Position numbers and translations under genes: made by a program. The notes below the pieces were generated by a model. It did no database searches and was not told the DNA's origin. It saw only the letters and a program-made list of their open reading frames with translations. From the NCBI RefSeq assembly GCF_048403405.1, contig NZ_CP183129.1: DNA of 64,000 nt. One strand, given 5' to 3'. The stretch is from Escherichia coli. GTDB lineage: Bacteria; Pseudomonadota; Gammaproteobacteria; Enterobacterales; Enterobacteriaceae. Shown piece by piece: positions 17,369-20,427 of the stretch (within the stretch, counting starts at the first letter, position 1; every line of letters begins with the position of its first letter).

Positions 17369-17456
17369 TGCCGGATGCGGCGTGAACGCCTTATCGGCCT
17401 ACGGTTCCGGCACATTTTGCAGGCCTGATAAGATGCGGCAAGCGTCGCATCAGGCA
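17369..17456. repeat. REP/BIME element (two palindromic units) between the araJ and mak 3' ends
   Basis: gccggatgcggcgtgaacgccttatcggcctac and aggcctgataagatgcggcaagcgtcgcatcaggc are typical E. coli REP palindromic units at a convergent junction. Confidence 0.8.
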
Positions 17457-18513: not shown

Positions 18514-19425
18514 ATGCTGTGGTTCAAAAATTTAATGGTTTACCGTCTTAGCCGCGAGATTTCGCTGCGTGCAGAAGAGATGGAAAAACAGCTAGCCTCG
18601 ATGGCATTTACCCCATGCGGCAGCCAGGACATGGCGAAGATGGGCTGGGTTCCTCCGATGGGATCGCACAGCGATGCGTTAACGCACGTTGCCAATGGTC
18701 AAATTGTTATCTGCGCGCGCAAAGAAGAAAAAATCCTCCCGTCTCCGGTGATTAAACAGGCGCTGGAAGCGAAAATCTCCAAACTGGAAGCGGAACAGGC
18801 GCGTAAGCTGAAGAAAACCGAAAAAGATTCGCTGAAAGACGAAGTGCTGCATTCTCTGCTGCCGCGTGCTTTCAGCCGTTTTAGCCAGACAATGATGTGG
18901 ATCGACACGGTTAACGGTTTGATTATGGTGGACTGCGCCAGTGCCAAAAAAGCGGAAGATACGCTGGCACTGCTGCGTAAAAGCCTGGGGTCGTTACCGG
19001 TTGTACCATTGAGCATGGAAAACCCGATTGAACTGACGCTGACCGAATGGGTACGTTCCGGCAGCGCGGCACAGGGCTTCCAGCTGCTTGATGAAGCCGA
19101 GCTGAAATCGTTGCTGGAAGATGGCGGCGTGATCCGCGCGAAGAAACAAGATCTGACCAGCGAAGAGATCACCAACCACATTGAAGCCGGAAAAGTGGTG
19201 ACTAAACTGGCGCTCGACTGGCAGCAGCGCATTCAGTTTGTGATGTGCGACGATGGTTCGCTCAAGCGTCTGAAGTTCTGCGACGAGCTGCGCGATCAAA
19301 ACGAAGATATCGACCGTGAAGATTTCGCCCAGCGTTTTGATGCCGATTTCATCCTGATGACTGGTGAACTGGCAGCGTTAATTCAAAACCTGATTGAAGG
19401 ATTAGGTGGCGAAGCACAACGTTAA
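18514..19425 (+). CDS. rdgC: Recombination-associated protein RdgC
   Basis: Matches Rdg[35 protein letters not shown]...; start at the ATG at 18514 (303 aa). Confidence 0.94.
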
Positions 19426-19433
19426 TTGCTGAT

Positions 19434-19467
19434 TTACCTTTAATGCCGGATGCGACGCCTGCCGCGT
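19434..19467. repeat. REP palindromic unit downstream of rdgC
   Basis: gccggatgcgacgcctgccgcgtcttatccggc (REP consensus-like palindrome). Confidence 0.7.
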
Positions 19468-19582
19468 CTTATCCGGCGTGCGAAGCTACACCAGGCATAT
19501 AATTATTCGCTACGGCGGGCAATAATTTTTAGCGCAGCAATATTATGCGTTTTATGCTGTAACTTGCTCCAGGGGCGTTGTG

Positions 19583-19864
19583 TCATTGTTTTTCCTCAAG
19601 CCGGTGACGCGCTTCACTGCGAATTTTTCGCGTTGCCCCGGTTTTCACTAAATCACGTAACAGCGAAAGATCGGGTTGTTCGACAAATAAGAGTAATGAT
19701 GGATCCTCTTTTAACCACGCCGTTTTCACATCGGCAGCCAGCTGTGAATTATTAATAGCCAGCGACCGCTCCTGAGGCTCAGTCAATGTCGTTAACAACA
19801 ACACCGGGGTATGTGCGTTGTGCAATGCCGTTTGGCGCAAATGATCATTGCGACTTTGCAGCAA
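19583..19864 (-). CDS. ykiA: Small hypothetical protein in the rdgC-ppnP gap (possibly the ykiA equivalent)
   Basis: 93-aa ORF from the track (MLQSRNDHLRQTALHNAHTPVLL...). The position matches where I recall ykiA in K-12, but I cannot verify the sequence, and my hand count of the start codon near 19860 did not fully reconcile with the track. Confidence 0.35.
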   Translation of the reverse strand: MLQSRNDHLRQTALHNAHTPVLLLTTLTEPQERSLAINNSQLAADVKTAWLKEDPSLLLFVEQPDLSLLRDLVKTGATRKIRSEARHRLEEKQ

Positions 19865-20071
19865 TGCACGCCACCATTCATCATCTGATTTATCTTTTAT
19901 CGTCGCCAGTTCCGCAACAATATCTGGAGATCTTCGCTGATATTTATATCAACCTTGATGAATTATGAATATATCGGAAATCGAAAAAATCCCAGCAAAG
20001 GAAATATTATTATGGGTTAAAGAGAGGACATTTCAGATAAATGCCCTCCCGTTCAAGGGGAAGGCGAGGAA

Positions 20072-20356
20072 TTACAGATAGCGGCACAGATAAGAGGTGG
20101 GTTCGGCAACTTGCAGATGAAACTCGCTGTGACCGGGAACATTAAACACCGAACCGGCTTCATACACTTGCCAGTCGGTCGCGTCAGGCAGTAACACATT
20201 CAGCGCGCCACTGATTACCGTCATCTCTTCAGGCTCAGCGGTGCTGAAGGTGTATTCACCTTCAACCATAACACCCACGCTGGCGCGACCAGTGCTGCTG
20301 CTGGAAAAGCCGATCGATTTCACTTTGCCGGAAAAGTACTCATTACTTTGAAGCAT
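20072..20356 (-). CDS. ppnP: Pyrimidine/purine nucleoside phosphorylase
   Basis: 94-aa [40 protein letters not shown]... matches PpnP (YaiE). Confidence 0.93.
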
Positions 20357-20427
20357 AAACTGGCCCTGTCTGGTAGTTGAACATCTACTTCACTATAGGG
20401 GCCAGAGGCGCTGGCTGTCACGCAAAA

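What the first reader, a model, noticed from the sequence alone, without database searches (positions are those of the whole stretch)
19426..20071. 646-bp rdgC-ppnP gap with a REP unit and one or more small ORFs of uncertain reality
The gap holds a REP palindrome and overlapping small ORFs on both strands (93 aa on the minus strand, 101 and 60 aa on the plus strand). Only one can correspond to the K-12 small gene I recall here (ykiA). Which strand is coding cannot be decided from sequence alone.
Basis: inference. Interest (0 to 1): 0.2.

Follow-up and report, generated by a model that had tools for sequence, protein, structure and literature searches.

The report
Decayed ykiA–ykiD gene remnants plus REP
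The rdgC–ppnP gap of this E. coli window holds the leftovers of a two-gene cassette that is still intact in O157:H7: the ykiA pseudogene, the 27-residue YkiD peptide gene and one REP hairpin, all already annotated in K-12, so the finding is ordinary.

Summary
The gap is 646 bp (19426-20071) and contains a REP palindrome (19445-19477) and ORFs of 93 aa (-), 101 aa (+) and 60 aa (+).

The strand question can be settled: the minus strand was the coding strand.
- Window 19583-19924 (-) is the K-12 pseudogene ykiA (b0392). It is the last ~113 codons of a 759-aa DUF2773 protein that is intact in O157:H7. The 93-aa ORF is its inner part.
It is an in-frame internal-deletion relic of the 151-aa SF0329-family gene, residues 1-10 joined to 135-151. 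Its product was detected by epitope tagging in K-12.
- Three microhomology-flanked deletions (372, 864 and 1070 bp) turn the O157-type cassette into this allele. About 82% of 5,426 complete E. coli genomes carry it.

Both plus-strand ORFs are antisense artefacts. They are broken by stops in 4/13 and 7/13 alleles, K-12 included, and have no family match. The ykiA frame shows no protein-level constraint (dN/dS 0.61; variable sites 12:10:16 by codon position) and has no start codon.

Already known; low interest.

The parts
19445..19477 (.). Single REP (repetitive extragenic palindrome) unit between the convergent 3' ends of rdgC (+) and ykiD (-). It forms a stable hairpin on either strand.
   Evidence: Pattern match with 0 chance matches. 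Inverted repeat of 14-nt arms and a 5-nt loop. RNA folds of -30.9 and -31.2 kcal/mol, z -3.5 and -3.2. Sub-threshold Rfam naRNA4 hit, 27.8 bits. The REP is also present in the O157 allele, since window 19300-19564 aligns to L005 1501-1766.
19503..19586 (-). ykiD (K-12 b4732), 27 aa, MTQRPWSKLQHKTHNIAALKIIARRSE. It is a relic of the 151-aa SF0329-family gene: residues 1-10 fused in frame to residues 135-151 by a 372-bp deletion. It keeps the ancestral ATG and a GAGGA Shine-Dalgarno 6 nt upstream, and its ATG overlaps the ykiA stop (ATGA).
   Evidence: RefSeq annotation of the 100%-identical strain and of K-12. Alignment to the intact SF0329 genes of O157 and VE-T9. SD and ATG are identical in 13/13 alleles. 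The K-12 protein was detected by chromosomal epitope tagging (PMC6001520 Table 1). The window copy differs from K-12 by R11H.
19556..19564 (.). Junction of deletion 1, a 372-bp in-frame deletion inside SF0329. The 9-nt microhomology GCTGTAACT is present at both ends of the deleted segment in the intact allele (GCCGTAACT / GCTGTAACT).
   Evidence: Overlapping blastn segments, window 19300-19564 = L005 1501-1766 and window 19556-19924 = L005 2130-2498. Sequences printed.
19583..19924 (-). ykiA pseudogene (K-12 b0392). It is the 3' end of a DUF2773-family gene, covering residues 359-362 plus 651-759 of the 759-aa O157:H7 protein. There is no ATG or GTG at its 5' end.
   Evidence: PGAP note 'DUF2773 domain-containing protein, incomplete, missing N-terminus'. 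K-12 pseudogene ykiA. Pfam PF10971 at E=1.9e-43. 95.4% nucleotide identity to L005 2130-2498. Residue mapping.
19913..19930 (.). Junctions of deletions 2 and 3 inside the former DUF2773 gene. An 18-nt island, CGCAACAATATCTGGAGA, comes from codons 357-362. Deletion 2 (864 bp, in frame) lies between 12-nt repeats CGCAA(A/C)AATATC. Deletion 3 (1070 bp) removes codons 1-356, the start codon and 1-2 nt upstream.
   Evidence: An 18-nt exact match, window 19913-19930 = L005 3351-3368, together with the flanking alignments. Sequences. The sizes add up: 372+864+1070+1 = 2307 = 2953-646.
19931..20042 (-). Retained upstream region (promoter and 5' UTR) of the former DUF2773 gene, which is the ykiA promoter region. 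A sigma-70-like site runs from 20036 to 20009 (CTGAAA-16-CATAAT).
   Evidence: 97% identity to the region upstream of the intact O157 gene, window 19930-20400 = L005 4438-4908. Consensus scan. In K-12 the ykiA promoter was mapped by 5'-RACE and shown to be activated by BglJ-RcsB (PMC3950696). The exact transcription start coordinate is not in the held text.
20043..20065 (-). Terminator-like hairpin immediately after the ppnP stop codon.
   Evidence: Consensus scan: 8-pair stem with 6 GC pairs, followed by ATTTATCT. Function not tested.
19450..19755 (+). 101-aa ORF antisense to ykiD and ykiA. Not a gene.
   Evidence: No Pfam match. A premature stop at codon 19 in 4 of 13 E. coli alleles. Its frame shows dN/dS 0.90. 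Not annotated in any record inspected.
19786..19968 (+). 60-aa ORF antisense to ykiA and running across the deletion junctions. Not a gene.
   Evidence: No Pfam match. Interrupted by a stop in 7 of 13 alleles, including K-12. It spans the deletion 2/3 junctions, so it cannot predate them.

Best explanation
The gap is the decayed remnant of a two-gene cassette transcribed on the minus strand, from ppnP towards rdgC. The cassette encoded a 759-aa DUF2773-family protein and, overlapping its stop codon, a ~150-aa SF0329-family protein. The DUF2773 protein has a signal-like N-terminus, a beta-solenoid and a long alpha-solenoid. The cassette is intact in O157:H7.

In the lineage of this window, as in K-12, three deletions flanked by short direct repeats removed 2.3 kb. 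What remains is the old promoter and 5' UTR, an 18-nt island, the last 109 codons of the first gene (the ykiA pseudogene, with no start codon), and a 27-codon in-frame fusion of the two ends of the second gene (ykiD).

ykiD kept its own Shine-Dalgarno and ATG, so its peptide is still made. This was shown in K-12 by epitope tagging. Transcription comes from the retained promoter, which BglJ-RcsB activates in K-12. Whether the peptide does anything is not shown. Most likely it is a translated relic.

The REP hairpin at 19445-19477 sits between the convergent ends of rdgC and ykiD. By inference it acts as a 3'-end stabiliser or barrier for both transcripts. The 101-aa and 60-aa plus-strand ORFs are antisense shadows of former coding sequence.
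For: Annotation: the 100%-identical strain and K-12 annotate exactly these features.

Homology: Pfam DUF2773 matches the minus-strand translation at E=1.9e-43, and nothing matches the plus-strand ORFs.

Intact cassette: O157:H7 carries DUF2773 (759 aa) plus SF0329 (149 aa) between the same flanking genes.

Deletion map: blastn segments and printed junctions show the microhomologies, and the sizes add up exactly.

Intermediates: an allele with the ykiA remnant plus an intact SF0329 exists (L026). The SF0329-only allele shares the ykiA 5' junction. This gives a stepwise decay series.

Census of 5,426 complete genomes: about 4,476 are window/K-12 type, 444 are full length, about 57 are intermediate and about 447 are SF0329-only or other.

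Relaxed constraint: across 13 alleles, variable columns make up 13.6% of ykiA and 13.1% of ykiD, against 1.6% and 3.2% of the rdgC and ppnP ends. In the ykiA frame dN/dS is 0.61 (other frames 0.44-1.02), and variable sites split 12:10:16 by codon position.

Plus-strand ORFs are interrupted in 4/13 and 7/13 alleles.

ykiD: its SD and ATG are invariant in 13/13 alleles, and the protein was detected in K-12 (PMC6001520). The ykiA promoter is activated by BglJ-RcsB (PMC3950696).
Against: The ykiA frame stays free of stops in all 13 alleles, and one indel within it is in frame (3 bp, 3/13 alleles). I estimate roughly a 15% chance of that under neutrality, so weak selection on the frame is not excluded. 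The dN/dS estimate rests on 13 alleles and 108 codons and is noisy. Even the intact gene shows only weak constraint, 0.33-0.51 for O157 against VE-T9. No transcript or ribosome data were available for this strain. The roles of the REP and the ppnP terminator hairpin are inferred, not tested. The direction of change, deletion rather than insertion, is inferred from the remnants of both genes and from the intermediates.
Confidence: 0.9

Rival explanations
1. The minus-strand 93-113-aa ORF (ykiA) is a functional small protein in its own right, a free-standing helical-repeat fragment expressed from the BglJ-RcsB-activated promoter.
For: The frame is open in 13/13 alleles and one indel is in frame. 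The promoter is retained and active in K-12 (PMC3950696). The allele is carried by about 82% of E. coli genomes.
Against: There is no ATG or GTG at the 5' end. The first canonical start is an internal TTG, and no Shine-Dalgarno was noted there. dN/dS is 0.61, indistinguishable from the other frames, and dN is 0.039 against 0-0.002 in the flanking genes. A 1-nt insertion shifts the 5' end in strain 042. The whole remnant is deleted in the SF0329-only allele, about 447 genomes. RefSeq and K-12 curators call it a pseudogene.
Confidence: 0.04
2. One of the plus-strand ORFs (101 aa at 19450-19755 or 60 aa at 19786-19968) is the real gene.
For: They are the longest and third-longest ORFs in the gap. 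Two ORFs of >=93 aa together are rare in shuffles, 0.3%.
Against: There is no family match. Premature stops occur in 4/13 and 7/13 alleles, including K-12. dN/dS is about 0.9-1.0. The 101-aa ORF starts inside the REP. The 60-aa ORF spans the deletion junctions. Neither is annotated in any record inspected. Both lie opposite sequence that is demonstrably homologous to minus-strand genes.
Confidence: 0.01
3. YkiD is not a mere relic but a selected 27-aa micropeptide, or the ykiA'-ykiD transcript is a selected regulatory RNA. That would explain why this particular deletion allele dominates the species.
For: The protein is detectably made in K-12 (PMC6001520). SD and ATG are invariant in 13/13 alleles. 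The allele is present in about 82% of genomes. The reading frame was preserved by a deletion of exactly 124 codons.
Against: 6 of 27 residues vary and the stop codon shifts by one codon among 13 alleles. ykiD is the most variable segment of the region by pairwise difference, 5.5%. The peptide lacks almost every invariant residue of the SF0329 family and gives no HMM match. The high frequency of the allele can be simple descent.
Confidence: 0.05

Closest known systems
E. coli K-12 ykiA (b0392, pseudogene) and ykiD (b4732, 27-aa protein)
   Same: Same locus between ppnP and rdgC, same lengths (342 and 84 bp), same 4-nt overlap and same orientation relative to the neighbours. Nucleotide identity is 97.3% over 901 bp. 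YkiD is identical at 26/27 residues.
   Different: The window copy has R11H in YkiD and a few substitutions in the ykiA remnant. In the window the codon two before the annotated start of the ykiA remnant is CGA (Arg), where K-12 has a stop.
Intact DUF2773 + SF0329 cassette of E. coli O157:H7 (WP_120795310.1 + WP_001303823.1)
   Same: Same flanking genes, promoter region, REP and strand. The window sequence aligns to its ends at 95-98% identity.
   Different: The window lacks 2,306 bp: codons 1-356 and 363-650 of DUF2773, and codons 11-134 of SF0329.
REP (repetitive extragenic palindromic) elements of enterobacteria
   Same: A ~33-nt imperfect palindrome of the GCCGGATG...CTTATCCGGC type, extragenic, lying between convergent genes and forming a stable hairpin on both strands.
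   Different: It is a single unit, not a BIME pair or cluster. Only one other REP-like half-site was found in the 64-kb window with the pattern used.
Orphan-immunity gene arrays of polymorphic-toxin systems (recombinase-associated arrays of small genes)
   Same: SF0329 homologues in other bacteria lie in same-strand arrays of 100-190-aa genes next to a tyrosine integrase, together with Imm10, SUKH-3 and Macro-domain genes. In E. coli, SF0329 is often kept after its upstream partner has been lost.
   Different: No toxin domain was found in the DUF2773 protein; its fold is a plain solenoid. DUF2773 homologues elsewhere are not next to SF0329. The SF0329 fold matches nothing solved. This is a lead about the ancestral gene, not about the 27-codon relic in the window.

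Membership tests
REP element | Imperfect palindrome of about 35 nt matching the enterobacterial REP consensus | tested here: met
   GCCGGATGCGACGCCTGCCGCGTCTTATCCGGC at 19445-19477, with 14-nt arms 86% complementary. Partial naRNA4 (REP-derived) Rfam hit.
REP element | Extragenic position, typically at the 3' ends of genes | tested here: met
   It lies 20 nt after the rdgC stop and 26 nt after the ykiD stop, between convergent genes.
REP element | Many dispersed copies in the genome | tested here: inconclusive
   Only the 64-kb window could be scanned. One further REP-like half-site lies at 17419-17432. The whole genome was not searched.
DUF2773 (Pfam PF10971) | Match to the family HMM above the gathering score | tested here: met
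   Window 19583-19924 (-): 146.9 bits against a cut-off of 25, E=1.9e-43, covering profile positions 1-81 of 81.
DUF2773 full-length family (750-800 aa) | Complete protein with a signal-like N-terminus, a beta-solenoid and an alpha-solenoid | tested here: not met
   Only 113 of 759 codons remain and there is no start codon. Full-length relatives are 735-819 aa. The O157 protein was modelled with pLDDT 91.6.
SF0329 family (PF25753 / NF049912) | Match to the family HMM; ~150-aa protein carrying the invariant core residues | tested here: not met
   The 27-aa YkiD gives no hit in Pfam or NCBIfam. It retains only residues 1-10 and 135-151. It descends from the family but is not a member.
YkiD (K-12 b4732) | Same locus, length and sequence as the experimentally detected K-12 peptide | tested here: met
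   26/27 residues identical, with the same position and the same overlap with ykiA. Translation was not tested for this strain.
Polymorphic-toxin immunity protein (for the ancestral SF0329 gene) | Encoded immediately downstream of a toxin-domain gene and neutralises that toxin | tested here: inconclusive
   In E. coli SF0329 lies immediately downstream of DUF2773 and overlaps its stop, but no toxin domain was found in DUF2773. Neutralisation cannot be tested here.

The most novel reading that the evidence does not exclude
The relic has been co-opted. On this reading the ykiA'-ykiD transcript, made only when BglJ-RcsB is active, yields a 27-aa YkiD micropeptide (or an RNA) with a function of its own, and that function explains why this exact triple-deletion allele is carried by about four fifths of E. 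coli. A related reading concerns the ancestral pair. DUF2773 is an exported solenoid protein. SF0329 is a small protein ~60% identical across phyla and found in immunity-like gene arrays. The pair could be an undescribed effector/immunity-type module.
Probability: 0.06. Interest if true: 0.4.

Novelty: already known. Interest (0 to 1): 0.1.

Why it matters
The scientific stakes are small.

Two modest by-products may help annotators. First, the Pfam family DUF2773 covers only the last 81 residues, the piece that survives as the pseudogene, of what is really a 750-800-aa family of solenoid proteins with a signal-like N-terminus. Second, the experimentally detected 'new small protein' YkiD is an end-to-end fusion relic of a 151-aa gene. 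This shows that detecting a small protein does not by itself imply that it has a function.

Tried and rejected
- NCBIfam, PADLOC and PDB sequence searches of the intact DUF2773 and SF0329 proteins gave only the family names, or nothing.
- A Foldseek search of the DUF2773 model gave only generic HEAT/armadillo solenoids.
- DUF2773 homologues in other bacteria are not next to SF0329 genes, so the pair is not a conserved two-gene system.
- Rescanning ten neighbours of an SF0329 homologue in an integrase-linked array found no further immunity families. The immunity-island idea remains a weak lead.
- Literature searches for SF0329 and DUF2773 found nothing relevant.
- The coordinates of the ykiA transcription start and the BglJ-RcsB box could not be recovered. 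They are in figures and supplements that are not held.
- An Rfam scan of the gap found no sRNA above threshold.
- dN/dS did not single out any of the six frames. Homology to the intact genes does.

Full report
**Observation.** The window is E. coli chromosome. It is 100% identical over 19300-20200 to strain TUM14771 and 97.3% identical to K-12 in reverse orientation. rdgC ends at 19425 (+) and ppnP is 20072-20356 (-), which gives the 646-bp gap 19426-20071.

The REP is real. A 33-nt imperfect palindrome lies at 19445-19477, with no match in 100 shuffles, 14-nt arms and a 5-nt loop. It folds stably on both strands, z -3.5 and -3.2. It also gives a sub-threshold match to Rfam naRNA4, which to my knowledge is a REP-derived RNA. 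Two ORFs of >=93 aa in one 646-bp stretch occur in only 0.3% of shuffles. That hints at former coding sequence.

**What it is.** RefSeq annotates two minus-strand features in the identical strain and in K-12.
- The first is a pseudogene, 'DUF2773 domain-containing protein, incomplete, missing N-terminus'. It is ykiA, b0392, at window 19583-19924.
- The second overlaps it by 4 nt. It is an 84-bp gene for the 27-aa protein YkiD, b4732, at window 19503-19586.

The minus-strand translation of 19583-19924 matches Pfam DUF2773 at E=1.9e-43. The plus-strand ORFs match nothing. The 93-aa ORF is simply the part of the ykiA frame that follows the first TTG.

**Origin.** E. coli O157:H7 carries an intact two-gene cassette between the same neighbours. 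It encodes a 759-aa DUF2773 protein and, overlapping its stop codon, a 149-aa SF0329-family protein. Aligning the window to this allele gives four collinear pieces. They define three deletions.
1. A 372-bp deletion inside SF0329, between 9-nt repeats GCYGTAACT. It is in frame and fuses residues 1-10 to residues 135-151, and the product is YkiD. The C-terminus ...RKTHNIAALKIIARRSE is exactly that of the 151-aa SF0329 protein of strain VE-T9.
2. An 864-bp deletion between 12-nt repeats CGCAA(A/C)AATATC. It is in frame and joins codons 357-362 (SPDIVA) to codon 651.
3. A 1070-bp deletion that removes codons 1-356, the start codon and 1-2 nt of leader.

The sizes sum exactly to the length difference: 372+864+1070+1 = 2953-646.

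The promoter and leader region (19931-20071) is retained at 97% identity. Within it, a terminator-like hairpin for ppnP lies at 20065-20043 and a sigma-70-like site runs from 20036 to 20009.

**Allele series.** A predicted intermediate, the ykiA remnant plus an intact SF0329, was searched for and found (L026). A fourth allele has SF0329 only. It shares the ykiA 5' junction, so it derives from that intermediate by a further deletion.

The approximate census of 5,426 complete genomes is as follows. The split rests on coverage thresholds and is an estimate.

| Allele | Genomes |
|---|---|
| Window/K-12 type (ykiA' + ykiD) | ~4,476 |
| Full length (DUF2773 + SF0329) | 444 |
| Intermediate (ykiA' + intact SF0329) | ~57 |
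| SF0329-only or other | ~447 |

Independent inactivations also occur. There is an IS3 insertion in the full-length gene of VE-T9 and a frameshift in SF0329 of strain 99RCEF.

I aligned 13 diverse alleles of the window type.

| Segment | Variable columns |
|---|---|
| ykiA remnant | 13.6% |
| ykiD | 13.1% |
| REP spacer | 9.1% |
| Promoter region | 8.2% |
| rdgC 3' end | 1.6% |
| ppnP 3' end | 3.2% |

In the ykiA frame dN/dS is 0.61, against 0.44-1.02 in the other five frames. dN is 0.039, against 0 and 0.0017 in the flanking genes. Variable sites split 12:10:16 over codon positions. No frame is under detectable protein-level constraint, as expected for a pseudogene.

The 101-aa plus-strand ORF has a premature stop in 4/13 alleles. 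The 60-aa ORF has one in 7/13, including K-12. The ykiA frame itself stays open in all 13, with a 5' frameshift in strain 042. By my rough estimate this is only weakly unlikely under neutrality.

ykiD keeps an invariant GAGGA-N6-ATG in 13/13 alleles. However, 6 of its 27 residues vary and its stop codon shifts by one codon.

**How it works.**
- Shown elsewhere: the K-12 ykiA promoter was mapped and is activated 4- to 73-fold (the range over ten promoters) by BglJ-RcsB (PMC3950696). K-12 YkiD was detected by chromosomal epitope tagging and immunoblot (PMC6001520 Table 1).
- Inferred here: the retained ancestral promoter drives a transcript across the start-less ykiA remnant. Ribosomes load independently at the preserved Shine-Dalgarno and ATG of ykiD and make a 27-aa fusion relic. 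The transcript ends at or near the REP hairpin, which also faces the 3' end of rdgC.
- The relic lacks nearly all invariant residues of the SF0329 family, so a retained ancestral function is unlikely.

**Ancestral genes (side inquiry).** The full-length DUF2773 family has 169 representatives at E<=0.001. About 40 of these are 735-819 aa long at 20-35% identity. The Pfam model covers only its last 81 residues. The O157 protein models confidently (pLDDT 91.6) as an N-terminal hydrophobic, signal-like helix, a beta-solenoid (~65-175) and an alpha-solenoid (240-757). It matches only generic HEAT/ARM repeats. Its homologues elsewhere have varied neighbours and no SF0329 next to them.

**Verdict.** The features are already annotated in K-12, so the finding is ordinary. 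The strand question is resolved in favour of the minus strand. ykiA is a pseudogene fragment, ykiD is a translated relic, and the plus-strand ORFs are artefacts.

Noticed in passing
window 19583-19924 (-); L005 2157-4436 (-): Pfam PF10971 (DUF2773, 81 positions) covers only the last 81 residues of what is really a 750-800-aa family. The model matches the part that survives as the K-12 ykiA pseudogene. The full-length protein models as a signal-like helix, a beta-solenoid and a long alpha-solenoid.
   Followed up: partly
[not shown]
   Followed up: partly
L003, L005, L018, L026 (E. coli rdgC-ppnP locus): Four allele states coexist in E. coli: the full cassette, the ykiA remnant plus intact SF0329, the ykiA remnant plus ykiD, and SF0329-only. 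There are also independent hits: an IS3 insertion in VE-T9, a frameshift in 99RCEF, and a 1-nt indel that changes the SF0329 C-terminus in O157:H7.
   Followed up: yes
window 19794-19796: A 3-bp in-frame deletion in the ykiA remnant occurs in 3 of 13 alleles. Strain 042 has a 1-nt insertion near window 19915 at the 5' end of the remnant.
   Followed up: no
window 17419-17432 (-): A second REP-like half-site (CTTATCAGGCCTGC) lies just downstream of mak.
   Followed up: no
window 19426-20071 versus flanks: Pairwise diversity among E. coli alleles is 2.5-5.5% inside the gap, against 0.4-1.0% in the adjacent ends of rdgC and ppnP. This makes the gap a local hotspot of neutral polymorphism.
   Followed up: partly
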